From Acidothermus cellulolyticus 11B (GTDB taxonomy: Bacteria; Actinomycetota; Actinomycetes; Acidothermales; Acidothermaceae): a stretch of 32,000 nucleotides of DNA. The translations under genes were made by a program, and so were the position numbers. The notes beneath the pieces were generated by a model. The model ran no database searches and was not told the DNA's origin. It worked only from the letters and a program-made list of their open reading frames with translations. The DNA lies in NCBI RefSeq assembly GCF_000015025.1, contig NC_008578.1:2160001-2192000 (forward strand), read 5' to 3'. Below, piece after piece: positions 4,530 through 16,376 of this stretch; positions within the stretch are counted from its first letter, which is position 1; each line of letters starts with the position of its first letter.

Positions 4530-5066
4530 TCAGTCGGTCGAATCTGCCGAGGTGTCCGGCGATTCAACGTCCGTAACGGCTCCTTCGGCGGGAACAGCCT
4601 GCTGACGTTGCCGGCTCGCCGCAACAGCGGCTGCACCGGCGGCGACGAGAGCGGCGCCGACGGTCACCGCGGCTGTGATGGGAAGCGCGCTGCCGGTGAA
4701 CGGCAGCTGCGAGGACTCCCCCGCCACGCTGGGCGATGGGGTCTTCGAGAAGCTCTCGCCCAGCACCGAAGGGCTCACCGAGCCAGACGGTGAGGGGGAC
4801 GGCGACGGCGATCCGGACGGCGACGGCGACGACGGCGGAGAGGTCGTCACGGTCACTGGCGGTGTGGTACCGGTCTGCGGTGGCGGCGGCGGCGGTGCGG
4901 CACCGCTGGCCGCTTCGGCCGCATGCGCATTCATAGCGATGACCTGAACGGCGGGCGCTATCCATAACAAGCCGCCGGCGACCGCTCCGCGCTTCAGCGC
5001 GTCCCGCCGGGTCAATCCGGCCGCTGGCTGTGTACCGTCCACCTGTCCTGCCACTCCCTCTCGCAA
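4530..5066 (-). CDS. Small secreted Pro/Ser-rich surface protein with a Tat-type signal and an LPXTG-type sortase anchor
   Basis: The N-terminus LTRRDALKRGAVAGGLLWIAPAVQVIAMNAHA has a twin-arginine motif, an h-region and an AxA site. The core is low-complexity (PPPPPPQTGTTPPVTVTTSPPSSPSPSGSPSPSPSPSGSVSPS). The C-terminus has LPFTG, a ~26-aa hydrophobic stretch and RQRQQ, followed by an unusual extra 22-aa acidic tail. The exact start is uncertain. Confidence 0.65.
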   Translation of the reverse strand: MREGVAGQVDGTQPAAGLTRRDALKRGAVAGGLLWIAPAVQVIAMNAHAAEAASGAAPPPPPPQTGTTPPVTVTTSPPSSPSPSGSPSPSPSPSGSVSPSVLGESFSKTPSPSVAGESSQLPFTGSALPITAAVTVGAALVAAGAAAVAASRQRQQAVPAEGAVTDVESPDTSADSTD

Positions 5067-5279
5067 TGCTCACGGACCCCGCCACCGAAACGATCGCGAG
5101 TCGATGCGCCTACTGTAGCGCGTCCTGCCGATCGCAGATACACGCTCGAGGAAAGATAACCCAAGCGGAGCATTTCTCCAACCAACTCCACACCAATAAA
5201 GCGGACATTTCTCGCAAATCGTTGCGAGGGCCAGGGCGTCTTTCGGTAACGTGAGCTCGTCGCGTGGGAGGAGCCGCCA
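5067..5279. promoter_or_regulatory. Divergent intergenic/promoter region between the LPXTG-protein gene and the PqqD-like operon
   Basis: 213-bp gap between divergently oriented genes, locally AT-richer around 5130-5230. Shine-Dalgarno GGGAGGAG at 5266-5273 lies 6 nt before the ATG at 5280. No -10/-35 boxes were assigned. Confidence 0.4.
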
Positions 5280-5582
5280 ATGCCAGCTGTGCCACGGCGC
5301 GCTGACGGCGTCATCTGGGACGACCTCGACGGGCATATCGTCGTCTTCAACCCTGCGACGAAACACGCCGTCGCCCTCAACGAGACAGCGGCCGCCATCT
5401 GGCTGCTCATCGACGGAATTCGCGACGAGGCGGCCATTGCAGCCGAGCTGTGTGCGCGCTACGACGTTGACGCGTTGGAAGCACACAATGCCGTCGCGAT
5501 GACGATTGCGCAATTCGTCGGCGAAAAGCTGCTCGATGATACTGGGACACCGGACGAGCGCAGCGGGTCCACCGGGGCGTGA
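5280..5582 (+). CDS. PqqD-family protein (RiPP recognition element-like peptide chaperone)
   Basis: 100 aa. VIWDDLDGHIVVFNPATKHAVALNETAAAIWLLIDGIRDEAAIAAELCARYDVDALEAHNAVAMTIAQFVGEKLLDD follows the canonical PqqD/RRE pattern: beta-strands, then LN.ta..iW.l.dG, then three helices ending ..fl..l...gll. Strong SD upstream. Confidence 0.75.
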   Translation: MPAVPRRADGVIWDDLDGHIVVFNPATKHAVALNETAAAIWLLIDGIRDEAAIAAELCARYDVDALEAHNAVAMTIAQFVGEKLLDDTGTPDERSGSTGA

Positions 5583-5588
5583 CACCTG

Positions 5589-6740
5589 ATGGCTGACTCC
5601 CCCGTCCTTATCGCGGCCGCGACCCGAAATCCTTTGCACCCAGGCACGTTCAGCGGCCTGTCTGCACGGCTGTTCGGCGCGCTCGCGGACGAAGGCTTCG
5701 ACATCGTGCCGGTCACGACCCGCGTTCTTCGGCCGCACGACCTGCTGACCGGGGCCGTCAATATCCGTGGATTTCTGAAAGGCCGGTTCCACGGTCGGGA
5801 TGCGCCTCGGGTGAATCCAGCCTGGATGTGGTCGCGGCGCGGTTATCAGCGGTTCTGCCGCCGCTTCGACGCCGTGCTCGCCGGTATGGCCAGCGCACCT
5901 GTCGTACAGGTCGGCACGCACGTCCGGCCGGCCGACCGTCGGTTCCCTCACTTCTGCATTACCGACGCGACGGTCGTCCAGGCATTGCAGGCGGGTGAAT
6001 TCAGCGTGAGCGCAGCAGGTTCACGCATCGCCGATGAGGCCGTCGCGTGGCAGCGCGAAATCTTTGAGTCCTGTGAGCGGATTTTCACGCTCTCCCACTG
6101 GGCGGCGCAGAGCGTCGTCGCGGATTACGGAATCCCGGCCGATCGCGTGGTCGTGTCGGGTGCCGGCGCGAACGTCGACGAGCCACTGCCCCGGCAGGTC
6201 GATACCGAGCATCCCTACGTGCTCTTCGTCGGCGCAGACTGGGCGCAGAAGGGCGGTCCGCTCCTGCTTGAGGCGTTCCGGCGGGTGCGGTCGCAGTTTC
6301 CCGCCGCCCGGCTCGTCATCGTCGGTTGCCGGCCCCGCATCGCCGAACCGGGTGTTGAGGTCGTCGGGCCGCTCCGCCGATCGGTACCGGCGGAGAAACA
6401 ACGGCTGTTTGAGCTTTACGCGCGGGCAAGCTGCTTTTCCATCCTCTCCCGGTTCGAAGCCTTCGGCATTGTTTTCTTGGAAGCGGGTTTCTTCGGCGTG
6501 CCGGTAGTCACGCTGGACGGCGGGGCCCGACCGGAAATCATCGTCGACAACACGACAGGTTTTCTCGTACCACAGCGGAATCCGGACGACATCGCCGACG
6601 GTATTCTCGCGATCCTCACCGACCCCGACCGCGCCGAACGGATGGGGCACGCCGCCCGCCAACGCGTAGGCGACCACTTCACCTGGCCGGTCGTCGCTGC
6701 GAAAATTGCGCCGTACCTGCGAGCCGGGAGGAACGGGTGA
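5589..6740 (+). CDS. Glycosyltransferase family 4 (GT-B, Glycos_transf_1 type)
   Basis: 383 aa. YVLFVGADWAQKGGPLLLEAFRRV, followed by the EX7E-type region RFEAFGIVFLEAGFFGVPVVTLDGGARPEIIVDNTTGFLV. Starts 6 nt after the PqqD-like stop. Confidence 0.85.
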   Translation: MADSPVLIAAATRNPLHPGTFSGLSARLFGALADEGFDIVPVTTRVLRPHDLLTGAVNIRGFLKGRFHGRDAPRVNPAWMWSRRGYQRFCRRFDAVLAGMASAPVVQVGTHVRPADRRFPHFCITDATVVQALQAGEFSVSAAGSRIADEAVAWQREIFESCERIFTLSHWAAQSVVADYGIPADRVVVSGAGANVDEPLPRQVDTEHPYVLFVGADWAQKGGPLLLEAFRRVRSQFPAARLVIVGCRPRIAEPGVEVVGPLRRSVPAEKQRLFELYARASCFSILSRFEAFGIVFLEAGFFGVPVVTLDGGARPEIIVDNTTGFLVPQRNPDDIADGILAILTDPDRAERMGHAARQRVGDHFTWPVVAAKIAPYLRAGRNG

Positions 6741-7489
6741 CCAACGGCCTCGCGCGTGCGTGGCGGCTGCGGACCATGCTTCCGCCCGAGTGGCGAAGCC
6801 GAGCGCGGCACGTCGTCGATGCGTGCGGCAGGCCGATTGGCTCACTCCACGCGGCCTCGGTGACGGGGCTGGTGGGTCTCACCGTGGACGACGGTCCCGA
6901 CCCACACTGGACGCTGCCGCTGCTTGACGTCTTGGCGGCACACGGCTGCCGGGCGACGTTCTTCGTTCTCGCGTATCGCGCGCTTCGTTACCCCGACATT
7001 CTCCGCGCGACCGTTGCAGCCGGCCACGAAATCGCCCTGCACGGCTGGGACCACACCAGACTCACCGCCCTGCCGCCGAGCGAGGTGTTGGCGCGAAGCC
7101 GGCACGCCAAGGCGGTGGTCGAAGACCTCTCCGGTGCCCCGGTGCGCTGGTTCCGGCCGCCGTTCGGGGCACAGTCGCTCCGCAGCTACCTGGCGGTCCG
7201 CCGGCTCGGCATGGAGGTGGTCGTCTGGTCGGCGACGCCGCGGGATTGGGAGGACGGCGAACCCGACGAGGTCGCCGGCCGGGTCCTCGCCGACGTTCGG
7301 GACGGCGACATCCTCCTCACCCACGACGGCGTCGAAGTCCCCGCTGGCGACTCGGCACCGACCTTCGACCGGGCCGCGATGTTCGGTGCATTGCTCGACG
7401 GCCTCGCCAGCCGCGGATTGCGTGCGACCGCATTGGAGAATCTCGTCCGCTCCGGGCCGGCTCGGTACACCGCGTGGTTTCGGCCGTAA
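6737..7489 (+). CDS. Polysaccharide deacetylase (NodB homology / CE4)
   Basis: 250 aa. NodB motifs are LTVDDGPDP (TFDDG-type), GHEIALHGWDH (H-x4-H metal site), RWFRPPFGA (RPPxG) and ILLTHDG. The GTG start overlaps the upstream stop (GTGA at 6737-6740). Confidence 0.85.
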   Translation: MTNGLARAWRLRTMLPPEWRSRARHVVDACGRPIGSLHAASVTGLVGLTVDDGPDPHWTLPLLDVLAAHGCRATFFVLAYRALRYPDILRATVAAGHEIALHGWDHTRLTALPPSEVLARSRHAKAVVEDLSGAPVRWFRPPFGAQSLRSYLAVRRLGMEVVVWSATPRDWEDGEPDEVAGRVLADVRDGDILLTHDGVEVPAGDSAPTFDRAAMFGALLDGLASRGLRATALENLVRSGPARYTAWFRP

Positions 7490-7530
7490 CAGCCCGGATG
7501 GCTGCCGCAACAGCCCGGATGGCTGCCGCA
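7489..7530. repeat. Perfect tandem direct repeat, 2 x 21 bp (ACAGCCCGGATGGCTGCCGCA)
   Basis: Copies at 7489-7509 and 7510-7530 are identical. The repeat begins on the last base of the deacetylase stop codon and lies 120 nt upstream of the HprK-like start. Confidence 0.95.
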
Positions 7531-7604
7531 ATCGTCACGGTCACCGAGGGGCAAGCGACTCCCCTATCATGTGGGCATTGCGCGGAAGAGGGGCGGTGTG
7601 CGCA

Positions 7605-7630
7605 GGGAATCCCGAGAGGGGGAATCCCGA
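7605..7630. repeat. Short direct repeat GGGAATCCCGA x 2 in the 5' region of the HprK-like gene
   Basis: Copies at 7605-7615 and 7620-7630 (15-bp spacing), 20-45 nt upstream of the GTG at 7650. Each copy is near-palindromic (GGGAATCCC). SD-like AAGGGGA at 7639-7645. Confidence 0.8.
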
Positions 7631-7649
7631 AACCAGCTAAGGGGAAACG

Positions 7650-8462
7650 GTGAGCGTCTCACGCGAGAAGAGCAGCGTGCTCAGCCTCGCCGTTCTGGAC
7701 AGCTGCTTTCGGGTCGCCGCCCCCCAAGCGTTCACTGCGATCGTCGCGGATCTCTGGCACGCATTTCCCCGTGCGACGACGGCACGAGTGGAACACGCGC
7801 TTCGTGTCAAGGAAAGCGCGCCGGGTTACCTGGTCGAGCTGGACGGCACCACCGCATCGGCCGCGGATATCCCTGCCGCCGTGGGCTATCTCGGCCTCCT
7901 GGTCAACCGCATATGCCTGTCTGAGGTGACCGTGCCGGCATTCCACGCCGCGGTCCTTGCCGGATCCGCGGGCGCCGTCGTTGTCTTGGGAACCTCCGGA
8001 GCAGGGAAAACAACCCTCGCCGCGGCTGCCGCCCAGCGGGGGTTGCGTTACCTTTCCGACGAGGCATTCGTGCTGGAGGCGAAGAATCGCGCCCGCCCAT
8101 ATCCGCGTCCTCTCAGCCTTTCCCGCTGGGCGGCTGGACTGCTCGGCATCGCAGCGCCGTCACCGTGGCGCGACAGTGAAGAAATCCTCGTTTCTCCCCG
8201 CTCCCTTGGACCGGTCGCCTCGGAGGCGGCGGAGGTTCGTCATCTCGTCGTGCTCGACCGATCGCAGCGCGAGCCCGCGCTTCGCGCCGCCGAGCGGAGT
8301 CTCGCGGTTACTAGCCTGCTCCGGCTGTCGTTCAATCACTTTCGCGCGCCGGAGGGTACCTATCGTGATGTGATCACGCTGGCGCGGGCGTGCGAATGTT
8401 GGCAATTGTCCTATGACGATCCGCGCGACGGCGCCCGGCTCATCGAAGAACTCGTTACCTGA
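7650..8462 (+). CDS. HPr kinase-like (HprK-related) P-loop serine kinase homolog
   Basis: 270 aa. FHAAVLAGSAGAVVVLGTSGAGKTTLAAAAAQRGLRYLSDEAFVLE matches the HprK C-terminal-domain pattern (HA.av...G.a.ll.G.SG.GKSTLa..L...G...lsDe). GTG start preceded by AAGGGGA. Confidence 0.65.
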   Translation: MSVSREKSSVLSLAVLDSCFRVAAPQAFTAIVADLWHAFPRATTARVEHALRVKESAPGYLVELDGTTASAADIPAAVGYLGLLVNRICLSEVTVPAFHAAVLAGSAGAVVVLGTSGAGKTTLAAAAAQRGLRYLSDEAFVLEAKNRARPYPRPLSLSRWAAGLLGIAAPSPWRDSEEILVSPRSLGPVASEAAEVRHLVVLDRSQREPALRAAERSLAVTSLLRLSFNHFRAPEGTYRDVITLARACECWQLSYDDPRDGARLIEELVT

Positions 8463-8491
8463 GAACCATCGCAACTTTCCTTGCGCCTACA

Positions 8492-8551
8492 GAGAAATCG
8501 AAAGGCTCCCGGAGAAATCGGGAGGCGCCGGGAGAAATCGGGAGGCGCCGC
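8492..8551. repeat. Tandem direct repeat, 3 x 20 bp (GAGAAATCGGGAGGCGCCGG-type), last two copies near-identical
   Basis: Copies are 8492-8511 GAGAAATCGAAAGGCTCCCG (diverged), 8512-8531 GAGAAATCGGGAGGCGCCGG and 8532-8551 GAGAAATCGGGAGGCGCCGC. Phased as GGAGAAATCGGGAGGCGCCG, 8511-8530 and 8531-8550 are identical. It lies in the 152-bp gap between the convergent HprK-like and NTP_transf_5 genes. Confidence 0.95.
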
Positions 8552-8614
8552 CTGCGCGTCACGACCATTCACCCTGCGTGGGGCGACCGGCAGAGGCAGC
8601 TCGGATCCTGAGCG

Positions 8615-9760
8615 TCAGCGTTGCGCGAGAACGAACCGGAAGTACCGATCCCGGTCCGCGCTGTCGGCCGGATCCTCGGCAACCGGCTCGAATGCCAGGT
8701 CGCTGCCGCCGTGGCGCCCGCCATGCAGGGCCCATACGGCGGTCCGCCGGACGAACTCCGCCGTGCTCTGCGCTGCACCACGCCGCGCGGCCCGCGCGGT
8801 CAACCGGGCAAGCGAATTCGGTTGCGTTCCCAGCGGAAGCCCGAACCGGTCGACCAGAGCGGTGATGGACCGCCACGACATGCCGCCCAATAGCCCGGCA
8901 ATGACATCCGCAGGTGCCGGGAGACCGACGACACGCTGGGCCCGCGCTAACGCCGTACCCACCGCGGCCGCGAGACCCCACGCTCGCGCCCGCTCACTCA
9001 CCGCCGTCCACTCAATGCCTTGCGATGCGCGGACGATATCGGTGAGCCAGCACAATCGATCCGCGCCACTGAGCGCAGCATGCACACACAGGTGGACGAC
9101 GGTATCGACCGGCGAGAGGGTCCGTACCGGTCTGCCGCCGACATCAACCGACCGCGCATCACGGAAGAGTTGCTCCATGCCGAGCTGGAAATTCCGGCGC
9201 GCCCGGGCGTCACCGACCACATTCCAGTGGAGATCGATAATACTGCCGTTCGGCGCGAGCAGGTGGATCTCGGCAGCCTGAGCGCGCAGCAAGCCCGCCC
9301 AGCTGATGTCGTAGCGCCGGCAACCGGCATCTGCCAACGCTTCGACGGCGGCACAGAAACTGTGCGGTGGGACGACGAGATCCACGTCGAGGTAAGACCG
9401 AAGCTTCGGCTCCGCGTACACCGATTCGGCCAACACGGGTCCCTTGATGACGAGCGCGTCAATTCCGGCCCGCTGCAAGACAGACGTCACGTACTGCAGG
9501 TCGGCTTTCGCGCGCAGATGGTGGGCGAGCGCATCGCAGGCCGCGGCCAGGCAGCGTGCCGCCCCGGGCGTATCGCGATAAGACGTTGCGGACAGAAAAC
9601 GCCACGCGAATCCCGGAATGCGATGCCACACCGCCGCCTCAGCGAAGCGCTGCAGGGCCGGGTCAATTGCGGCTAGACGGTCAAGGATTGCCGGCACGGG
9701 CCGCTCGGCGACACTCGCCGCCAGCGACCGGCTAAGCACGGCGCGGTGTTTCGTCATCAC
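8615..9760 (-). CDS. Nucleotidyltransferase family protein (NTP_transf_5 / 'uncharacterised nucleotidyltransferase' type)
   Basis: 381 aa. RAGIDALVIKGPVLAESVYAEPKLRSYLDVDLVVPPH, followed later by IDLHWNV. This is the characteristic lKG..la..lY.dp.lR...D(i/v)Dl(l/v)v ... (i/l)DlH pattern of this family. Starts 6 nt after the upstream GT4 stop. Confidence 0.65.
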   Translation of the reverse strand: MMTKHRAVLSRSLAASVAERPVPAILDRLAAIDPALQRFAEAAVWHRIPGFAWRFLSATSYRDTPGAARCLAAACDALAHHLRAKADLQYVTSVLQRAGIDALVIKGPVLAESVYAEPKLRSYLDVDLVVPPHSFCAAVEALADAGCRRYDISWAGLLRAQAAEIHLLAPNGSIIDLHWNVVGDARARRNFQLGMEQLFRDARSVDVGGRPVRTLSPVDTVVHLCVHAALSGADRLCWLTDIVRASQGIEWTAVSERARAWGLAAAVGTALARAQRVVGLPAPADVIAGLLGGMSWRSITALVDRFGLPLGTQPNSLARLTARAARRGAAQSTAEFVRRTAVWALHGGRHGGSDLAFEPVAEDPADSADRDRYFRFVLAQR

Positions 9761-9766
9761 GCTGGG

Positions 9767-11212
9767 TCACTCATGAGCGTCGACGTCGGCTTCTCCTGCA
9801 GATGGCGCCGGTGAATCCTCCGGCAACTTGCGCAGCGGCACGTAGAGCGCCAATTCGTGATGACCGCGCAGGTCGACGAGACGATTCCCAAAGGAGTCAA
9901 CCAGGGGTCCCGGTTTCACGGCCCGGCGCCGATCGACCGCTGGCCAGGAGAGCTCCTTCTTCCGGGGCAGCGGCGTGCCGATAAGACGCGTGAACACGCC
10001 CACGTACGCCCGCCGCTGCGGTTCCCAGTCGAGGACGGCGGCGGCGCGGGCTCGGGCGGCAAGGGCCATCCGGACCCGGGACTCCTCGTCGTCCAGCAGC
10101 ATCGCGATGGTCTTCGCAAAGCCTGCGACATCCCCGGGTGTCACGTAAACGGCGGCGTCCCCGGCTGAGACCCTGGTCTCCTTCAGGTCGAAAGCAACGA
10201 CTGGCAGGGCGAATGCCATGTATTCCATGGTCTTGTTCATCGTCGAGACGTCATTGAGCGGATTGAGCGGATCTGGGGAAATCCCGATATCGGCACTCGA
10301 GAGATATTCGCTGATCATTCGTGCGTCGGCGCGGCCGGTGAACGTGACATAGTCGTTGAGCTTGAGCTCATCGGCGAGCGACCGCAGCTCGTCAAAGCAG
10401 TCCCCGAAACCAAGCAGGGCAAGGTGGAGGTCGCTGCGACCCATCTCGTACACGTAGTGTGCAAGTGCCCGGAGTGCGACGTCGACGCCGTCTTGCGGTC
10501 CCATGATTCCCAAGTAGCAGGCGAGGTATCGGCGGCCGCGCCGCAGCTCGGGCCGCCCTTCGATGGGACGCATCCGCGCGGTATCCGGGCCGCTGCGCAC
10601 CACGGTGACCTCATCCGCACGCCGATTGCCGCGGGTGAGCGCCGCCTGTCGGTAGGACTCGTTTGTCGCGATGACGTGGTCCGCTGTCGCGTAGGTCCGG
10701 CGTTCCAGCCAGCACAGCATGGCGTACTGTGCCCGCTTGATGATCCCACGGGGGGTGCCGAAGCGGGAAAGGAAAACCTCCGGATTGAGATCGTGCTGAT
10801 CGTAAACGAATGTGATGCGCCCGCCGGTCGCGAGTTTCCATAATTTTGCGAGAAGCCAGTAGGTGTCCGGCGGGTTGCACGCTTGCAGGACGTCGAATCC
10901 GACCCGCCGTTGCACCCGGATCGAGAGCATGGCGGTTCGCAGCCAGCTGTAGAAGAATTCCCACGCGAAACCAAGAAATCCCCGCGCAGGCGGTGCCGGT
11001 TGATACTTGAAGAGGTGGACGCCGTCCAGCACCGCATAGCTTGGATCGCCGGGTCCCTTCGGGCAGATGACGGACACGTCAAAACCCGCGTCGTACAAAG
11101 CCCGGCACTCCAACCAGACCCGGCGGTCGAGCGGAACCGGAAGGTTCTGCACAACGATGAGCACCCGCTTAGCCGTCGTATCGAGCGGCACGATTTGCCG
11201 CGCGCCCGTCAT
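9767..11212 (-). CDS. Glycosyltransferase family 4 (GT-B)
   Basis: The ORF is open to 11227 (486 aa). The ATG at 11212 (MTGARQIVPL) is preferred because GGAGGGGG lies 5 nt upstream. Motifs are KRVLIVVQNLPVPLDRRVWLECRALYDAGFDVSVICPKG (N-terminal GT4 subfamily signature) and MEYMAFALPVVAFDLKETRVSAGDAAVYV in the C-terminal EX7E region. Confidence 0.85.
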   Translation of the reverse strand: MTGARQIVPLDTTAKRVLIVVQNLPVPLDRRVWLECRALYDAGFDVSVICPKGPGDPSYAVLDGVHLFKYQPAPPARGFLGFAWEFFYSWLRTAMLSIRVQRRVGFDVLQACNPPDTYWLLAKLWKLATGGRITFVYDQHDLNPEVFLSRFGTPRGIIKRAQYAMLCWLERRTYATADHVIATNESYRQAALTRGNRRADEVTVVRSGPDTARMRPIEGRPELRRGRRYLACYLGIMGPQDGVDVALRALAHYVYEMGRSDLHLALLGFGDCFDELRSLADELKLNDYVTFTGRADARMISEYLSSADIGISPDPLNPLNDVSTMNKTMEYMAFALPVVAFDLKETRVSAGDAAVYVTPGDVAGFAKTIAMLLDDEESRVRMALAARARAAAVLDWEPQRRAYVGVFTRLIGTPLPRKKELSWPAVDRRRAVKPGPLVDSFGNRLVDLRGHHELALYVPLRKLPEDSPAPSAGEADVDAHE

Positions 11213-11371
11213 TCTTGCCCCCTCCATGTGTCCACCGGCAGCCCCGTCGCCGGTGCCCCCAGCACTATGGTGTCAGATGCGACTACCCGATGCCGCGGCT
11301 GCGCGGAATGTCGGTTTTCCGCGACCGCGCTGCTCGTGATCTCAGAATTGTTTTACCACGAGCGGTCCGGA

Positions 11372-12427
11372 CTATCCGGCAAGAACGGCAGGGGAGAATG
11401 CCCCGGTTAGTACTTTTTGCGGTTTTCCTCCGCCATCGGCGGGGACGGACCAGAGGTCGGACCCGGCCGACGCACCGCCCTCGGGCATGGCGTACAGCAC
11501 GGTCTGATTGTCGAGCCAGACTGCCTGGTCGTCCACGCTCCGCGTCTCGGCGAGCAGCGTCTCCTGCATCGTCGCCACGTTGAGAACGGCAAGCCGCCAG
11601 GGTGCTCGTGCGTCGGACGAGACCCGCTTCTTGAAGACAAGCCGAGTGCCGTCGGGTGACAGCGACGGGCATTCGACATTGGTGCGCAGGCTCACGACGG
11701 TGCGCCGCGCCATGTCACCCTTCACGAGGTAGGTCTGGCCTCGAGTGCTGAGCGTCGCATAAAAGGTGTTGTCATCAGCGGCGAAGGTGACGCCCCAGAA
11801 ATTCACGTCCACCGAGGAGTACGGCCGACCGTTGAGCACGATCGAGAACGTTTCGAGATTGGCGATGAGATTACCGGTCGTCGTATCGAGAATCGCCGTC
11901 CGAGTGGAGAAACCGGTTGATAGATAGCTGTCGCCGTACACGAAAACGGTCCAGCTGGCGATCCGGCCGTCCGGCGAGAGACGAGCCCGGCTTGGTAGGC
12001 CGGGAAGGGCGATCCGGTGAACTGGCCGTAAATTCTCGTCGTAGACGACGGCGCTGTATGTCGTGACGACTCCCCGTTTGGCGGCAAGGCAGAGCAGCGT
12101 CCGCGCCGCAGCGTAAACCCGGTCACAGGCGATGGTCGTGAAGCGACGCGCCGGACCGGCCGGGGTGTCGCCGCGCAACGGCTCAACGGCGACATAACCG
12201 TAGCCAGGCCCCAACACTGTACTGCGGAAGACGAGCTCCCGACCGTGACCGAAGAGGTCAGCGCCCGAGAGCGTCGCAGAATTCGGCGAGCGGGGTGACG
12301 CGACAGGGTGGCGTACCGCCCGCAGCGAATAGATCAGGCCGATGGCGACGAAAAGCACCAGAGCCGCCGTGACGACGACCCAACGGCTGCGGGACAACCG
12401 AAGGAGACGACCCGGCGAATTCGTCAT
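11372..12427 (-). CDS. Membrane-anchored TolB-like / PD40 beta-propeller protein
   Basis: 351 aa. N-terminal signal anchor RWVVVTAALVLFVAIGLIYSL. Repeated PD40-like SPDG motifs (ARLSPDGRIASWTVF, CPSLSPDGTRLVFKKR). Its ATG overlaps the MFS stop (ATGA at 12424-12427). Confidence 0.7.
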   Translation of the reverse strand: MTNSPGRLLRLSRSRWVVVTAALVLFVAIGLIYSLRAVRHPVASPRSPNSATLSGADLFGHGRELVFRSTVLGPGYGYVAVEPLRGDTPAGPARRFTTIACDRVYAAARTLLCLAAKRGVVTTYSAVVYDENLRPVHRIALPGLPSRARLSPDGRIASWTVFVYGDSYLSTGFSTRTAILDTTTGNLIANLETFSIVLNGRPYSSVDVNFWGVTFAADDNTFYATLSTRGQTYLVKGDMARRTVVSLRTNVECPSLSPDGTRLVFKKRVSSDARAPWRLAVLNVATMQETLLAETRSVDDQAVWLDNQTVLYAMPEGGASAGSDLWSVPADGGGKPQKVLTGAFSPAVLAG

Positions 12428-13692
12428 CGCCGCCTGCCGCCGGCTCGCACGTCAAGCAACCAGGGCGCAGCCAGGGCGAGGACGCCGCCAAGCGCGACTA
12501 CGAAAATCAGCGTCGCCTGAGTCGGACCCCAGGCTGACCACGCGGCGCCGAAAAGTACCGAGGAGACAATCGCCCCTGCCGCCGTACCGGTCTTGAGTAC
12601 AGCCATGCCACTGGCCCGCAACTGGACGGGAATGAAGCCGCTGATGTAAGCCATGAGGACTCCGTCGGTCGCCGCGTAATACGCGCCGTGCAGGACGAGA
12701 ATCAATGCGAAGGTCCACCACCGTACGGCACCGCGGCCGAGCAGCAGATATCCGGCCAGAAGCGGGGTGTAGCCGATGAGGAAAACCCGGGAACGGCCCA
12801 GGCGGTCTGCGAGACGCCCAAGCGGTATGGCAAGCGCCATGTAGACAGCGGAGGTCGCAAGCGGAAGCAGGGGAAACCACGCGATCGGGATGTCGAAACG
12901 CCGCTGCACAAGCAGGTACACGAAGGCGTCGCTCAGCGTAAGGACGCTCAGTGCCACGGCAGCGGCGGTTGCCACGGCCATCCGCCGATCGGCAAGCAGG
13001 GCGACGGCCCGGCGAACAGTCGGTCGCGCCCGCGCGGACGCCGGCACCGCAGGCTCCCGGACCGCGGCGGCGAGCAGGACGACGCCGCAGCCCGCAATGC
13101 AGAAACTCACCACGAAGATCGAATCGTACCGCCCGGGAGCTGCCGCGAGGAGAACGAAGGCGACCAGCGGTCCGATGAACGCACCGAAGGTGTCGAGGGC
13201 GCGATGGACGCCGAAGGCCCGGCCGAGTGCGTGTTCCTGACTCGACAGCGAGATGAGCGCGTCACGCGGCGCCGTCCGCAATCCTTTGCCGGTCCGGTCC
13301 AGGCCAAGGACGGCGGCGATGGCAGGAATGACAGAGCCGACAGCCAGCAGGCCGAGCTTGCACACCGCGGACAGGGCGTAGCCCGTGAGCGCAAGCCCCT
13401 TTCGTCGCTCCCAACGATCAGCTAGGTGACCGGCCGTCAGCTGCACGAGCGATGTCACGCCGTTGTAGAGGCCGTCGAGGAATCCGAAGGTGAGGGGCGT
13501 CGTACCGAGCACAAAGACGAGGTACAGCGGAAGAACGGCGCTCACCATCTCCGACGAAATGTCGGTTATGAGGCTGACAATTCCGAGCATCACCACGTTT
13601 CGGCTGACGCCGATGCGCGGCAGAGGCAGGGCGACCTCGGGGTCACTTGCGGGCGCAGACACCACCGTGCGAGAGCGACTGGTGAGGTACAT
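12424..13692 (-). CDS. MFS transporter
   Basis: Polytopic hydrophobic protein with about 12 predicted TM stretches. The ORF is open to 13842, but that would overlap the divergent gene starting at 13767. The ATG at 13692 (MYLTSRSRTVV...) leaves a 75-80 bp divergent promoter gap. Confidence 0.8.
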   Translation of the reverse strand: MYLTSRSRTVVSAPASDPEVALPLPRIGVSRNVVMLGIVSLITDISSEMVSAVLPLYLVFVLGTTPLTFGFLDGLYNGVTSLVQLTAGHLADRWERRKGLALTGYALSAVCKLGLLAVGSVIPAIAAVLGLDRTGKGLRTAPRDALISLSSQEHALGRAFGVHRALDTFGAFIGPLVAFVLLAAAPGRYDSIFVVSFCIAGCGVVLLAAAVREPAVPASARARPTVRRAVALLADRRMAVATAAAVALSVLTLSDAFVYLLVQRRFDIPIAWFPLLPLATSAVYMALAIPLGRLADRLGRSRVFLIGYTPLLAGYLLLGRGAVRWWTFALILVLHGAYYAATDGVLMAYISGFIPVQLRASGMAVLKTGTAAGAIVSSVLFGAAWSAWGPTQATLIFVVALGGVLALAAPWLLDVRAGGRRR

Positions 13693-13766
13693 GCGGGCGC
13701 CTTCCGCTGAGCAGAGGTGGTACCAGTGTGCACGGCGCCGGCCGGAACGCGTCGGGAGCTTAGGCT

Positions 13767-14666
13767 GTGGCCATGCGACCACCCCGCCGCCTGGCCGTGC
13801 TAGGACGGGTCCGGCGCACCCAAAAGCCGCATACCGTGACAACCGCCCGGTTCTGGCGCCGGATGTCCCGGGTCGTGTGCTATCCCATAACGGTAGCCTG
13901 CCTCAGCGCGCTGGTGCTCGGTGCGGTCACGTACCTCGTCTCGCCGAAGCCCTTCGAGGAACGGGCCATTCTCTTCACCGCCAACCCGCAAGCGCCAAAT
14001 CCCTATGTGAACGTGGGGCGCGGGCAGTATGCGGTCTCCGAGGTGGTCGCGCGGCGTATCTTGGCGGATGCCAGCATCCGCAACATGCAGCGACATGGCC
14101 AGTTGGCAGCTTTCACGCTGGAGATCGAGCAGAATCTCAATGAACCGCTCCTGCACATTACGGTTCGCGGTCGCGATCGGAACGTCGTTGTCGCAACTCT
14201 CCGGACAGTGATCGCCGAAGCCCAGCATGAGTTGGTGCTCGTGCAGAACGAGAGCGGCTCGCCGGCTGCGCAGCGTTTCGAATACACCGTGATTGCGGAG
14301 ACCCCGGTGCCGGAAATCAGCCGGCGGGACGCCATTCAGCGCGCCATCGAGGTATTTCTTGGCGTCTTTCTCGTCAGTTATCTGATTGGTCTCGCAGTGT
14401 CCAGTTATCGCCGCTACCGGGACACGCTTTGCGCGACCGATGAGACAGTCGTCTCCGAGACAGGCGCCGCGAAGGAAGCAGATCCTCGCGGCGACGCGCC
14501 GCAGCCTGTGACATCGCCGACGAATGCCACGACGCTACACAGCGAGACGTCCGGCGATGCCGCGGTGTCGGCTCACGACGGAATTCAGACCAGCTCCACT
14601 GCGGCGGACGACGCACCGGCACCGACGACAGCGAGGGACTCATCACCCGCCGACAGCACCTCATGA
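13767..14666 (+). CDS. Wzz-like (polysaccharide co-polymerase-like) bitopic membrane protein with a disordered C-terminal tail
   Basis: 299 aa. FWRRMSRVV, then TM1 (ITVACLSALVLGAVTYLV), then SPKPFEERAILFT, then a ~150-aa soluble segment, then TM2 (VFLGVFLVSYLIGLAVSSY), then RRYR. This is the PCP/Wzz topology without a kinase domain. The call rests on architecture rather than strong motifs. Start may be GTG 13767 or ATG 13773. Confidence 0.5.
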   Translation: MAMRPPRRLAVLGRVRRTQKPHTVTTARFWRRMSRVVCYPITVACLSALVLGAVTYLVSPKPFEERAILFTANPQAPNPYVNVGRGQYAVSEVVARRILADASIRNMQRHGQLAAFTLEIEQNLNEPLLHITVRGRDRNVVVATLRTVIAEAQHELVLVQNESGSPAAQRFEYTVIAETPVPEISRRDAIQRAIEVFLGVFLVSYLIGLAVSSYRRYRDTLCATDETVVSETGAAKEADPRGDAPQPVTSPTNATTLHSETSGDAAVSAHDGIQTSSTAADDAPAPTTARDSSPADSTS

Positions 14667-16376
14667 CGTGCAGACCAGGGGTGTTCCGTCCGCATCCCAG
14701 ACGTTGTTCGTGAAGCCGATCGTCCGTCCGGGTGACGGGCCGAAGGAGCACGGGCCGTAGCGTGCATTGCGCGCGAATCTATTTCCGGTGAAATTGATGA
14801 CACCCGAGTCGTAGCCGGGATCGGCACCGGCGTAGATGGTGTAGTTGCCGCCGCCGAGAAGGCTGTTGGTGACATTCACGGTACCCATGTTGGAGAGGTC
14901 TGCACCGATGATGAGTGCGCTGTTTGCCACACCGCCGTTCGGTAGGGTCGCGTCAATGGTGCAGTGGGTGATGAGGACGTTGTCGCTCCCCGTTGACTGA
15001 ACGCCGTCGGTGTGATCACCGCTATTGACCGTCAGGTCGTGAAGCCACGAATCCCGCACGGTCACGTTGTCACCGACGTCTATCGCGTCACCGGTTCCAT
15101 GGATATTCAGCGCCGTCGCAGTAAATCCGCTGCCAACCAGACCAGGAACACTGGGATTGAGATGACGGCCGTCGATCTCAACGTGATCGATGATGATGCC
15201 GTGGTAATTCCAGCCGGTGTACAGCGCGTGATAGCCGCCGGTGGCAACAATTTTGACGTTGCGCACGGTGACATTATTGGCGAAGACGTCAAGCTCTCCG
15301 GTGATGAGCAGGTTCTGGACCACCGCTCCATCCTGCGTGATGGTGACCCCGCCGGACGAGGTCAAGGCAACACCCGGTTGCACACCGGTATTTGTGGCGT
15401 CGGGGAAGCCACAGGCGCTCGGACGTGACCAGCAGTTGGACATCGTCGGGGTGCTTGCCGACGGGCTGCTGCTGGGCGACGGCGTGATGAGGTTTGAGGA
15501 CGCCGGCGGTGAGCTGGGCGTGAAGCTTGCGCTCGGAGAGGTAGGCGCGCCGAGGGTGCCGCCAGTCGCCGGAGATGACGGGGACGCCGTTGGAAGCGCG
15601 GAGTTCGTCGGCACTGGTGCGCTGGTCGTCGGCCCGCTCGTCGGTGCAACCGATGGACCGGACCCGGAGCCGGACGAGATCGACGGAGTCGCGGTCGGTG
15701 TCCCGGAACTCCCTGCACCCGAAGCCTTCTGCGTTGTCAGGGACGAGCTCGCGCTCGGCGTCGGCGACGAGGGTGCAGCCGGAGCAAAGATGACATCCAC
15801 GTAGTAGCTCGAGTCGTGCCACGACTGGGTCGGGAATCCTTCAGGCCCGTATCGGTAGACGCCCTTGGTCTCGATGACAATGCCGTCGCCGAGGGTCTTG
15901 CCGTTGGAGAACGCGTACTGCTGCTGCGCGTAGTAACCACTGTTCGTGTGGTAACCGGCGACGTAATTGCGACCCGGTTTGACTGAGACAGGTTTCGCGA
16001 ACGTGACCGTCTGCCAACCTTGCAATGTCTCGTTACTGAATGTCGCCCGAGTCAGCAACGTACCCGAGGAGGTCCACAGAGCGGCGGTGTGCGTTCCCGT
16101 ATTCTGCGCGCTCTTGTAGTAGCGGATGCCGACGACATTTCCGGGCACCGTGACGTGAAAGACAGCGCCCAGCTCGACAGCTTGCGCGTCCTGCTCCGCA
16201 GCCTGGACCGGCTGCGTCGTCGTGCTGAACACGCTCTGCGTCGTCGATGCGAGCTGGGTCGAGCCATTCGCGGCCTGGAGGCCGATCGTCGTTCCTCCAG
16301 CGGCAACAGCAACCGCGATCAGCACGGTAAGGGTAAAAGTACGGCGACGTCCTCTAGCAGGCAGAACGTTATACAC
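14661..16376 (-). CDS. Secreted DUF4082 domain + Pro/Ser/Thr linker + right-handed beta-helix protein (putative glycan-active enzyme)
   Basis: 571 aa. Signal peptide RRRTFTLTVLIAVAVAAGGTTIGLQA. DUF4082 region AVELGAVFHVTVPGNVVGIRYYKSAQNTGTHTAALWTSSGTLLTRATFSNETLQGWQTVTF...SSYYVDVIF. A ~130-aa PST-rich linker. Beta-helix region CGFPDATNTGV...HVEIDGRHLNPSVPGLVGSGFTATALNIHGTGDAIDVGDNVTVRDSWLHDL..GDHTDGVQSTG...GNRF..YGP. Confidence 0.75.
   Translation of the reverse strand: MYNVLPARGRRRTFTLTVLIAVAVAAGGTTIGLQAANGSTQLASTTQSVFSTTTQPVQAAEQDAQAVELGAVFHVTVPGNVVGIRYYKSAQNTGTHTAALWTSSGTLLTRATFSNETLQGWQTVTFAKPVSVKPGRNYVAGYHTNSGYYAQQQYAFSNGKTLGDGIVIETKGVYRYGPEGFPTQSWHDSSYYVDVIFAPAAPSSPTPSASSSLTTQKASGAGSSGTPTATPSISSGSGSGPSVAPTSGPTTSAPVPTNSALPTASPSSPATGGTLGAPTSPSASFTPSSPPASSNLITPSPSSSPSASTPTMSNCWSRPSACGFPDATNTGVQPGVALTSSGGVTITQDGAVVQNLLITGELDVFANNVTVRNVKIVATGGYHALYTGWNYHGIIIDHVEIDGRHLNPSVPGLVGSGFTATALNIHGTGDAIDVGDNVTVRDSWLHDLTVNSGDHTDGVQSTGSDNVLITHCTIDATLPNGGVANSALIIGADLSNMGTVNVTNSLLGGGNYTIYAGADPGYDSGVINFTGNRFARNARYGPCSFGPSPGRTIGFTNNVWDADGTPLVCTS

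What the first reader, a model, noticed from the sequence alone, without database searches (positions are those of the whole stretch)
5280..9760. Orphan PqqD/RRE + HPr-kinase-like + NTP_transf_5 trio wired to GT4s and a CE4 deacetylase, with no RiPP cyclase, protease or clear precursor
Seen in sequence: a 100-aa PqqD-family (RRE-like) gene is coupled to a GT4 (6-nt gap) and a NodB/CE4 deacetylase (GTGA overlap). An HprK-like P-loop kinase homolog follows after a repeat-rich spacer. Convergent on the other strand are an NTP_transf_5-type nucleotidyltransferase and another GT4, 6 nt apart. Established knowledge: PqqD domains are peptide-binding RiPP recognition elements. HPr-kinase homologs and nucleotidyltransferases of this type accompany PqqD-like B1 proteins in phosphorylated lasso-peptide clusters of the paeninodin type. 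As I recall, NCBIfam/TIGRFAMs also define 'HprK-related kinase A/B' and a 'PqqD family protein, HPr-rel-A system' as a conserved cassette of unknown function. Inference: this window has no asparagine-synthetase-like lasso cyclase, no transglutaminase-like B2 protease and no convincing precursor, and the partners are sugar-active enzymes. That points to a peptide- or protein-guided glycosylation, phosphorylation or nucleotidylylation step inside a cell-envelope glycan pathway, or to a glycosylated RiPP-like product. It does not look like a lasso peptide. I do not know of a biochemical function for this arrangement.
Basis: partly seen in the sequence, partly recalled or inferred. Interest (0 to 1): 0.75.

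Follow-up and report, generated by a model that had tools for sequence, protein, structure and literature searches.

The report
Leader-guided kinase cassette with overlooked substrate
An Acidothermus gene cluster pairs a peptide-binding PqqD protein, an HPr-kinase-like enzyme, a nucleotidyltransferase and sugar enzymes with a previously overlooked neighbouring gene for an exported surface protein. That protein's conserved twin-arginine leader is probably the handle by which it is modified, which points to an undescribed way of decorating secreted proteins.

Summary
The window is Acidothermus cellulolyticus 11B (Acel_1915 to Acel_1920). It holds no lasso cyclase or B2 protease, and close relatives almost never have a cyclase.

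The claim of "no clear precursor" fails. It encodes a Tat-type leader, a Pro/Ser/Thr-rich stalk and an LPFTG motif with a membrane anchor.

The same leader heads otherwise unrelated small proteins next to PqqD plus HprK-like pairs. I found it in 10 of 11 well-flanked window-like loci. Leader identity has a median of 39%, against 17% for the rest of the protein. Bona fide NCBIfam "HPr-rel-A" loci in Sphingomonadales also carry a Tat-leader protein directly upstream.

Best reading (inferred, not shown): the PqqD domain binds this leader and recruits the kinase. NTP_transf_5, the GT4s and CE4 then build a phospho-glycan before Tat export.

This is a new variant of a cassette that is defined bioinformatically but has no known function. 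Its likely substrates are now identified.

The parts
4530..5066 (-). Candidate substrate ('LEAD' protein, 178 aa; start codon uncertain: TTG 5066, GTG 5054 or 5042, TTG 5015). It has a Tat-type leader (TRRDALKRGAVAGGLLWIAPAVQVIAMNAHA), a Pro/Ser/Thr-rich stalk, then LPFTG, a hydrophobic helix, RQRQQ and an acidic tail.
   Evidence: Translation. NCBIfam TAT_signal_seq scores 18.3 bits against a cutoff of 16.7. The leader HMM scores E 2.3e-18. The same leader occurs next to PqqD/HprK-like genes in other loci. No Pfam family matches the mature part. This is the only such motif in the window.
5067..5279 (.). Divergent intergenic region between the substrate gene and the PqqD operon.
   Evidence: Sequence. 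No consensus sigma-70 site was found. The divergent LEAD/PqqD layout recurs in L005, L086, L088, L138, L160, L198 and others.
5280..5582 (+). PqqD-family / RRE-like peptide-binding protein (Acel_1915).
   Evidence: Pfam PqqD at 59.7 bits. Best PDB sequence match is the lasso RRE TbiB1, 5v1u, at E 0.017. TIGR04353 scores 25.8 bits, below its 35-bit cutoff.
5589..6740 (+). GT4 glycosyltransferase a (also passes the Pfam GT4-conflict cutoff).
   Evidence: An orthologue is present in L088, at a different position in the cluster.
6737..7489 (+). CE4 / NodB-type de-N-acetylase.
   Evidence: CE4 also occurs in L001, L088, L210 and L017.
7483..7531 (.). 21-bp x 2.3 tandem repeat in the CE4-to-kinase spacer.
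7650..8462 (+). HprK/PEPCK-fold P-loop kinase (Acel_1918), in a sister clade of NCBIfam HprK-related kinase A.
   Evidence: TIGR04352 at E 3.7e-18, 65.6 bits. Model pLDDT 95.8. Foldseek matches to PEPCK at E 5.5e-7 and to HprK/P at 2e-4. Invariant residues H99, S116, G119, K120, T122, D137 and E138.
8492..8550 (.). 20-bp x 3 tandem repeat between the convergent kinase and NTP_transf_5 genes.
8615..9760 (-). NTP_transf_5 nucleotidyltransferase-fold enzyme (Acel_1919), same family as PsmN.
   Evidence: Pfam at 135 bits. Invariant K106, G107, D125, D127 and H178. PsmN D134/D136 are catalytic in PMC6993621.
9767..11227 (-). GT4 glycosyltransferase b, 6 nt from NTP_transf_5.
   Evidence: Its orthologue lies convergent to the kinase gene, directly or after NTP_transf_5, in L001, L086, L088, L116, L141 and L197.

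Best explanation
This is a leader-guided protein-modification cassette. Its substrate is the neighbouring exported protein at 4530-5066(-).

Proposed sequence of events:
1. The PqqD/RRE protein binds the conserved Tat-type N-terminal leader of the still-cytoplasmic precursor. The leader consensus is [ST]RR-x2-LK-x-GA-x2-GG-x2-W-x2-P-VVQ...AxA.
2. PqqD presents the precursor to the HprK-like kinase, which phosphorylates Ser/Thr. A candidate site is the Ser that often follows the AxA site, or sites in the Ser/Pro-rich stalk.
3. The PsmN-like NTP_transf_5 adds a sugar to the phosphate. The two GT4s extend the glycan and CE4 de-N-acetylates it.
4. The modified protein leaves through Tat and is held on the surface by its LPFTG motif and membrane anchor.

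Shown here: the gene families, the conserved gene linkage and the conservation of the leader. Inferred: the binding, the chemistry, the order of steps and the export route.
For: 1. Linkage. A leader-bearing ORF lies within 3 kb of the kinase gene in 10/11 window-like loci with at least 1 kb on both flanks, and in 18/23 with one flank. The figures are 1/25 and 1/39 for the two more distant kinase tiers. The orientation varies. Loci without mfd nearby also have it: L005, L017, L160, L166 and the P0259 contig.

2. Only the leader is conserved. RR and P23 are present in 59/59 sequences and W20 in 56/59. Paralogues within one locus share 37-97% leader identity against 14-74% for the rest. Across loci the medians are 39% and 17%, and the leader is more conserved than the rest in all 1264 pairs. 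The mature parts range from PT-rich LPXTG proteins to Cys-rich and Gly-rich proteins and 50-80 aa peptides.

3. PqqD and the kinase are coupled. PqqD lies immediately upstream in 23/27 loci. The two are fused in Motilibacter proteins P0198 and P0099.

4. Generality. True TIGR04352/TIGR04353 loci (L010: 232.7 and 54.2 bits) carry a roughly 130-aa Tat-leader protein directly upstream in 19 Sphingomonadales loci. A Chloroflexi locus, L068, has one downstream.

5. Chemistry precedent. HprK homologues phosphorylate a Ser of lasso precursors. PsmN (NTP_transf_5) is required for hexose on that phosphate (PMC8498205; PMC6993621). The catalytic DxD is conserved here.

6. Sugar genes. LEAD, PqqD, kinase, NTP_transf_5, two GT4s and CE4 recur as a set with different gene order in L088 compared with the window. 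A GT4 lies within 5 kb in 4/4 well-flanked window-like loci.
Against: - There is no biochemical evidence for any step.
- The Ser after AxA is present in only 31/59 leaders, with Pro in 16/59, so no universal phospho-site has been identified.
- NTP_transf_5 is present in only 3/6 well-flanked window-like loci, and CE4 in 2/4.
- The window sits inside a larger glycan locus with Wzy, an ABC-2 exporter, GT2 and GT4. These genes could account for the sugar enzymes on their own.
- One leader peptide, in L211, has no kinase gene within 8 kb.
- The leader could simply be a lineage-specific Tat signal.
- The leader HMM was trained on these same loci. The controls are about 80 other-tier loci and the rest of the window, not whole genomes.
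Confidence: 0.5

Rival explanations
1. There are two independent modules. PqqD and the kinase act on the Tat-leader protein, for example by phosphorylation only. NTP_transf_5, the GT4s and CE4 belong to the surrounding cell-wall polysaccharide pathway and never touch the protein.
For: The window carries a full glycan locus downstream: Wzy_C, ABC-2 permease and ATPase, GT2 and GT4. NTP_transf_5 (3/6) and CE4 (2/4) are not universal in window-like loci. L005 has a Polysacc_synt_2 gene and a sulfotransferase instead.
Against: NTP_transf_5 is almost invariably adjacent to the kinase in the Sphingomonadales-type cassette (23/24 loci), where no GT4 or glycan locus is nearby (0/19). A GT4b orthologue abuts the kinase gene in L086, L116, L141 and L197. 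The same seven-gene set reappears in a different order in L088.
Confidence: 0.25
2. This is an export-control system. PqqD acts like a Tat proofreading chaperone (functionally like TorD, DmsD or NapD) and the kinase gates export or signal-peptide cleavage. There is no stable modification of the mature protein.
For: The only conserved part of the neighbouring proteins is a Tat-type signal that passes TIGR01409. The semi-conserved Ser sits right after the AxA cleavage site. One leader gene lies next to tatA.
Against: This does not explain the tight coupling to NTP_transf_5 (23/24 loci) or to the GT4s. In every characterised system, PqqD/RRE domains recruit modifying enzymes (PMC12710340).
Confidence: 0.12
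3. The kinase and NTP_transf_5 act on a non-protein substrate, such as a sugar, a lipid-linked glycan or a small molecule. The Tat-leader proteins are merely co-regulated surface or secreted partners.
For: The PEPCK/HprK fold also phosphorylates small molecules. A weak FomB-kinase hit appears. NTP_transf_5 chemistry is undefined in vitro.
Against: PqqD-kinase fusions and the invariably adjacent PqqD argue for a peptide ligand. The leader is conserved while the mature domains diverge to random-level identity, which is the signature of a recognition tag.
Confidence: 0.08
4. This is a cryptic or degenerate phosphorylated lasso-peptide cluster whose cyclase and protease lie elsewhere.
For: The PqqD, HprK-like and NTP_transf_5 families are the same as in the paeninodin and pseudomycoidin clusters, for example L064.
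Against: The 32 kb holds no Asn_synthase or transglutaminase. AsnS-like genes occur in 0/4 (1/35) window-like loci against 23/35 lasso-type loci. The kinase clade is clearly separate (250 bits against under 85 bits on the clade HMM).
Confidence: 0.02

Closest known systems
NCBIfam/TIGRFAMs 'HPr-rel-A system' (TIGR04352 HprK-related kinase A plus TIGR04353 PqqD family peptide chaperone), as in Sphingomonas kyeonggiensis L010
   Same: A PqqD gene lies next to an HprK-like kinase, with NTP_transf_5 and no lasso genes. As found here, a Tat-leader protein gene is also adjacent.
   Different: The window's proteins score far below the curated cutoffs (65.6 vs 200 bits; 25.8 vs 35 bits). In the window the genes are interrupted by GT4 and CE4, NTP_transf_5 is convergent, and the substrates are hypervariable rather than one orthologous 130-aa protein. 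The system has no published function.
Phosphorylated and phospho-glycosylated lasso peptides (paeninodin PadeK; pseudomycoidin PsmK/PsmN)
   Same: The same three protein families are present. The kinase phosphorylates a precursor Ser, and the NTP_transf_5 protein is needed for hexose on the phosphate.
   Different: There is no cyclase or B2 protease. The likely substrate is a 50-350 aa Tat-signal protein, not a roughly 40-aa lasso precursor. PqqD pairs with the kinase (fusions) rather than with a protease.
Bufferins (MNIO enzyme plus DUF2063 RRE-like partner acting on DUF2282 precursors with Sec signal peptides)
   Same: A RiPP-like modification of exported precursors whose N-terminus is an export signal, with an RRE-type partner (PMC12710340; PMC11626156).
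   Different: The enzymes are different and the signal is Sec, not Tat. In that system the signal peptide is reported not to carry a specific RRE motif. Here the signal itself is the conserved element.
Cytoplasmic GT4 glycosylation of Ser-rich LPXTG adhesins (SdgA/SdgB; GtfA/GtfB)
   Same: GT4 enzymes act beside a Ser/Pro-rich, LPXTG-type surface protein. There are weak SdgA/SdgB hits of about 23-24 bits for GT4a and 15 bits for GT4b.
   Different: Those systems have no RRE, kinase or NTP_transf_5, and they export via Sec or accessory Sec. The similarity is conceptual only.
SynChlorMet cassette ScmC/ScmD
   Same: This is another HprK-like plus PqqD-like pair in a peptide-maturation cassette. 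The window PqqD hits ScmD (TIGR04248) and the L010 kinase hits ScmC (TIGR04249), both weakly.
   Different: That cassette is built around radical-SAM maturases, which are absent here.

Membership tests
HPr-rel-A system (NCBIfam) | Kinase reaches the TIGR04352 HprK_rel_A curated cutoff (200 bits) | tested here: not met
   65.6 bits, E 3.7e-18. The Sphingomonas control L010 scores 232.7 bits.
HPr-rel-A system (NCBIfam) | PqqD reaches the TIGR04353 PqqD_rel_X cutoff (35 bits) | tested here: not met
   25.8 bits. The control L010 scores 54.2 bits.
HPr-rel-A system (NCBIfam) | PqqD, HprK-like kinase and NTP_transf_5 clustered without lasso genes | tested here: met
   All three lie within 4.5 kb in the window. 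No AsnS-like gene is present. Relatives are covered.
Lasso peptide gene cluster | Asparagine-synthetase-like macrolactam cyclase (C protein) | tested here: not met
   No Asn_synthase hit in any window ORF scanned, and none with the AsnS HMM.
Lasso peptide gene cluster | Transglutaminase-like B2 leader peptidase | tested here: not met
   No such Pfam hit among the window ORFs. I built no dedicated HMM for it.
Lasso peptide gene cluster | Short precursor with a leader and a core that forms a macrolactam | tested here: not met
   The only candidate is a 178-aa Tat-signal, LPXTG-type protein.
PqqD / RiPP recognition element | Pfam PF05402 above its gathering score | tested here: met
   59.7 bits vs 23.4.
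PqqD / RiPP recognition element | Three-strand sheet plus three-helix winged-helix fold that binds a leader | tested here: inconclusive
   The single-sequence model shows strands followed by helices, but pLDDT is only 57.7. Binding cannot be tested with these tools.
HprK/P - PEPCK-like P-loop kinases | Fold and the His plus P-loop plus acidic-pair motifs | tested here: met
   Model pLDDT 95.8. Foldseek matches to PEPCK at E 5.5e-7 and to HprK/P at 2e-4 to 1e-3. H99, GxGK[ST]T and D137/E138 are invariant. The Pfam Hpr_kinase_C model itself gave no hit.
NTP_transf_5 (PsmN-like) | Pfam PF14907 above cutoff, with the catalytic DxD | tested here: met
   135 bits vs 31.2. D125 and D127 are invariant. 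PsmN D134A/D136A is inactive.
Tat-exported protein | Twin-arginine signal (S/T-R-R-x-x-L-K, hydrophobic region, AxA) | tested here: met
   TIGR01409 scores 18.3 bits vs a 16.7 cutoff. The motif is visible in the sequence. Actual Tat dependence cannot be tested here.
Sortase (LPXTG) substrate | LPXTG, a hydrophobic span and a basic tail at the C-terminus | tested here: inconclusive
   By eye, LPFTG is followed by a hydrophobic span of about 24 residues (SALPITAAVTVGAALVAAGAAAVAAS) and then RQRQQ. A 22-aa acidic extension follows, and no NCBIfam LPXTG-anchor model hit was reported.

The most novel reading that the evidence does not exclude
A widespread, undescribed post-translational pathway in which a twin-arginine signal peptide also serves as a RiPP-style leader. 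A PqqD/RRE protein reads the Tat leader of diverse small secreted or surface proteins and recruits an HprK-like kinase and a PsmN-like transferase. In actinobacteria GT4s and CE4 join in. Together they install a phosphate-linked glycan in the cytoplasm before Tat export. This would define a new class of RRE-dependent modified proteins across Actinomycetota, Sphingomonadales and Chloroflexota.
Probability: 0.4. Interest if true: 0.85.

Novelty: new variant of a known kind. Interest (0 to 1): 0.72.

Why it matters
The HprK-like family is large. A profile search finds 2,489 50%-identity clusters at E<=1e-30 and 17,298 at E<=1e-10. NCBIfam names part of it, but no function or substrate has been published.

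Identifying a conserved, leader-tagged substrate family turns an "orphan RRE" into a directly testable system of one binding assay, one kinase assay and one mass spectrum.

If the model holds, three things follow:
- RRE-guided chemistry extends from short RiPPs to full-length exported proteins.
- Tat signal peptides gain a second role.
- It would add a bacterial route to phosphoglycosylated surface proteins, in a thermophilic cellulolytic actinobacterium of biotechnological interest.

Tried and rejected
1. Lasso cluster: rejected. There is no cyclase or B2 protease in the window or in relatives.
2. Anti-phage defence system, prompted by the GT4-conflict Pfam hit: no PADLOC hit for any of the 7 proteins.
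3. Metagenome scan with alignment A2 through the search for related loci failed for lack of a conserved stretch. I replaced it with a hand-designed degenerate DNA pattern.
There is no PDB sequence relative.
5. The single-sequence PqqD model was low confidence (pLDDT 57.7), so I ran no fold search on it.
6. The promoter and terminator scan was at chance level.
7. Exact look-up of the substrate ORF under six start codons found nothing. It may be unannotated or annotated differently in public records.
8. Blast clustering of small ORFs in the Sphingomonas loci was mostly alternative-frame noise. I replaced it with a seeded HMM.
9. A first paralogue-identity calculation used a wrong leader anchor and was redone with HMM coordinates.
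10. Literature searches for HprK-related kinase, NTP_transf_5, PqqD plus twin-arginine, and the Acel locus tags found nothing relevant.
11. The idea that the small gene is linked to mfd rather than to the cassette is rejected. The gene also occurs in loci without mfd.

Full report
**Observation**

The window is from Acidothermus cellulolyticus 11B. Exact protein look-ups return Mfd as ABK53685, the PqqD protein as Acel_1915, the HprK-like protein as Acel_1918 and the nucleotidyltransferase as Acel_1919.

- PqqD, 5280-5582(+): Pfam 59.7 bits against a cutoff of 23.4.
- GT4, 5589-6740(+).
- CE4/NodB deacetylase, 6737-7489(+).
- P-loop protein, 7650-8462(+): its best named match is NCBIfam TIGR04352 "HprK-related kinase A" at E 3.7e-18 and 65.6 bits, below the 200-bit cutoff.
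- NTP_transf_5, 8615-9760(-): 135 bits.
- Second GT4, 9767-11227(-).

The two 6-nt gaps and the GTGA overlap are exact. The spacer before the kinase gene holds a 21-bp tandem repeat, and a 20-bp x 3 repeat follows the gene.

An AlphaFold model of the kinase built on 50 homologues has pLDDT 95.8. Its best PDB matches are ATP-dependent PEP carboxykinases (E 5.5e-7) and HprK/P (E 2e-4 to 1e-3). The "HPr-kinase-like" label therefore holds at the fold level, even though Pfam Hpr_kinase_C gives no hit.

The rest of the window is Mfd upstream and a cell-envelope glycan locus downstream. That locus includes an MFS transporter, DUF4082 proteins, Wzy_C, an ABC-2 exporter, GT2 and GT4. No asparagine-synthase-like cyclase or transglutaminase is present.

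Between mfd and the PqqD gene, divergent from PqqD, lies a 178-aa ORF at 4530-5066(-). Its product has these parts:
- A twin-arginine signal, TRRDALKRGAVAGGLLWIAPAVQVIAMNAHA, which passes NCBIfam TAT_signal_seq at 18.3 bits against 16.7.
- A Pro/Ser/Thr-rich stalk.
- LPFTG, then a hydrophobic helix, RQRQQ and an acidic tail.

Contigs carrying homologues of the kinase show the same small divergent gene. The mature parts of these proteins differ completely, yet the N-terminal 40 residues are nearly the same.

**Comparative test**

The kinase family is large. A profile search of 1.84 billion representative proteins gives 2,489 hits at E<=1e-30. Where sources name the closest members, they come from Actinomycetota (Acidimicrobiales/Acidimicrobiia, Mycobacteriales, Acidothermaceae, Motilibacter).

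I collected 80 genome loci and about 120 metagenome loci. The metagenome loci came from a degenerate DNA pattern for the kinase motif GK[ST]T-x11-YxSDE-x13-YP[RK]P. I annotated all loci with in-house HMMs.

Sorting loci by kinase-HMM score separates four tiers:

| Tier (kinase HMM score) | PqqD directly upstream | Leader ORF within 3 kb | NTP_transf_5 | GT4 | CE4 | AsnS-like |
|---|---|---|---|---|---|---|
| Window-like (>=235 bits) | 23/27 | 10/11 (both flanks >=1 kb) | 3/6 | 4/4 | 2/4 | 0/4 (1/35 overall) |
| Intermediate (130-235 bits) | 35/50 | 5/15 | 8/12 | 2/7 | 0/7 | 0/7 |
| Sphingomonadales type (85-130 bits) | 22/28 | 1/25 | 23/24 | 0/19 | 0/19 | 0/19 |
| Lasso kinases (<85 bits) | 15/44 | 1/39 | 14/38 | 1/35 | 0/35 | 23/35 |

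In the Sphingomonadales tier the three core genes are colinear in the order PqqD, kinase, NTP_transf_5. An example of the lasso tier is Paenibacillus L064, with cyclase, kinase, PqqD, NTP_transf_5 and an ABC transporter.

**The leader**

Across 59 non-identical leader proteins, RR and a Pro 17 residues after the second Arg are invariant. A Trp three residues before that Pro is present in 56/59. The consensus is [ST]RR-x-x-LK-R-GA-x-x-GG-x-x-LW-x-x-PVVQ-x-x-GM-x-x-A-x-A-[QE]-x-x-S. The final Ser is present in 31/59.

Several loci carry two or three tandem paralogues: L166, L168, L160, L113, L109, L017 and L139. Within a locus the leaders are 37-97% identical, against 14-74% for the remainder. 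Across loci the medians are 39% and 17%, and the leader is the more conserved part in all 1264 pairs.

Mature parts include PT-rich LPXTG-type proteins (window, L086, L088, L141, L197, L113, L109), Cys-rich domains, Gly-rich proteins and 50-80 aa peptides. None matches Pfam or NCBIfam.

A 72-aa member (P0259) sits divergent from PqqD and a 261-aa gene at the kinase position (no Pfam hit), with NTP_transf_5 and a GT4 further along the same contig. Another, in L210, lies beside a kinase gene, PqqD, CE4 and GT4. One, in L211, has no kinase within 8 kb but lies near tatA.

No other ORF in the window has the motif. The window's other secreted proteins have ordinary signals.

**Generality**

In loci whose genes do pass the NCBIfam cutoffs (L010: TIGR04352 at 232.7 bits, TIGR04353 at 54.2 bits), a conserved gene of about 130 aa lies directly upstream of PqqD. 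It begins ...SRRALMLGAASASAIVSIRPALAQTNAS.... I found it in 19 Sphingomonadales loci and in no other tier. Here too the Pro falls 17 residues after the second Arg of the RR pair.

A Chloroflexi locus, L068, has a Tat-like protein with ...PALAQTS directly downstream of the kinase.

PqqD and the kinase are fused in two Motilibacter proteins.

**Mechanism (inferred)**

PqqD domains are leader-binding RREs that deliver substrates to partner enzymes (PMC12710340). HprK homologues phosphorylate a Ser of lasso precursors. The NTP_transf_5 protein PsmN is required to place one or two hexoses on that phosphate, and its D134/D136 are essential (PMC8498205; PMC6993621). The equivalent D125/D127 are invariant in the window's enzyme family.

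I therefore propose that Acel_1915 binds the Tat-type leader and Acel_1918 phosphorylates the precursor. Acel_1919 with its tightly linked GT4 (6-nt gap), the second GT4 and CE4 then build a phosphate-linked, partly de-N-acetylated glycan. The product would be exported by Tat, which tolerates folded or modified cargo (established knowledge), and anchored through LPFTG and its transmembrane segment.

Sugar-gene involvement is supported in three ways. The same seven genes recur in shuffled order in L088. A GT4b orthologue lies directly beside the kinase gene in L086, L116, L141 and L197. CE4 occurs in L001, L210 and L017.

The model is weakened by the variable presence of NTP_transf_5 and CE4, and by the large glycan locus next door.

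I put the full model at about 0.5. The narrower claim, that the leader protein is functionally tied to PqqD and the kinase, I put at about 0.9.

**Known or new**

The pairing of PqqD with an HprK-related kinase is already captured by the NCBIfam models. The enzymology has a lasso-peptide precedent.

I found no paper on the cassette, on the Acel genes, or on a link between PqqD proteins and twin-arginine leaders. Neither NCBIfam 20.0 nor Pfam has a model for the leader proteins. PADLOC has no hit.

The window's cassette fails the curated cutoffs of the named families, so I do not file it as a member. It is a sister clade with added GT4 and CE4 genes and a hypervariable, leader-tagged substrate family. 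That makes it a new variant of a known kind.

**Limits**

- All functional steps are inferred.
- The leader HMM was trained on the loci analysed. The controls are the other-tier loci and the rest of the window, not whole genomes.
- Many metagenome contigs are short.
- ORFs were taken stop-to-stop, so start codons, including that of the substrate gene, are uncertain.
- The substrate ORF was not found in the protein collection under six tested starts.

Noticed in passing
window 7483-7531 and 8492-8550: Two unrelated short tandem repeats (21 bp x 2.3 and 20 bp x 3) flank the HprK-like gene. The first overlaps the CE4 stop codon. Neither unit occurs elsewhere in the window.
   Followed up: partly
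window 14661-16376(-) and 26345-31702(-): There are two DUF4082 proteins in the adjoining glycan locus. One is a 1785-aa protein with five DUF4082 repeats, a DMFA2_C domain, Big_5 and CopC-like domains. Both have ordinary signal peptides, not the conserved leader.
   Followed up: no
window 11372-13842(-): A beta-propeller-like gene (weak PD40/TolB hits) and an MFS transporter overlap by 4 nt. A similar pair (MFS plus a Tricorn_N-like gene) lies near mfd and the PqqD-kinase pair on a 113-kb metagenome contig. The pair may belong to the system.
   Followed up: no
window 5589-6740(+): The first GT4 passes the Pfam cutoff of PF20706 'GT4 in conflict systems' (39.8 bits vs 26), as does its orthologue in L088. 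PADLOC gave no hit for any gene of the cluster.
   Followed up: partly
L017 5692-10599: An Actinomycetota MAG has two HprK-like genes facing each other across two leader-protein genes (a 99-aa Cys-rich one and a 189-aa one), with GT4 and CE4 nearby.
   Followed up: partly
P0198, P0099 (Motilibacter aurantiacus / M. deserti): These are natural PqqD-HprK-like fusion proteins of 345 and 338 aa. NCBI annotates them only as PqqD family proteins.
   Followed up: partly
L211 8001-10655: A 54-aa gene with the leader motif is followed by a 583-aa unknown protein, a PKD-like protein and a TatA/B/E gene. No HprK-like gene lies within 8 kb.
   Followed up: partly
L010 8992-9444 and 18 other Sphingomonadales loci: A conserved Tat-leader protein of about 130 aa, ending ...SGFTCFASLQMPRG with two conserved Cys, lies directly upstream of every bona fide TIGR04353/TIGR04352 pair examined. 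It has no Pfam or NCBIfam model.
   Followed up: yes
window 4530-5066(-): The substrate ORF was not found in the 15-billion-protein collection under any of six start codons, although its neighbours were. An opposite-strand ORF (4606-4947, GC3 0.78) overlaps it. Public annotation of this gene may be missing or on another start or strand.
   Followed up: partly
L005 1672-8071: A PqqD-kinase pair with a Cys-rich leader protein sits beside a Polysacc_synt_2 dehydratase, a sulfotransferase and sigma-70 (r4)/GerE-type regulator genes. This suggests that other tailoring chemistries accompany the core in some lineages.
   Followed up: no
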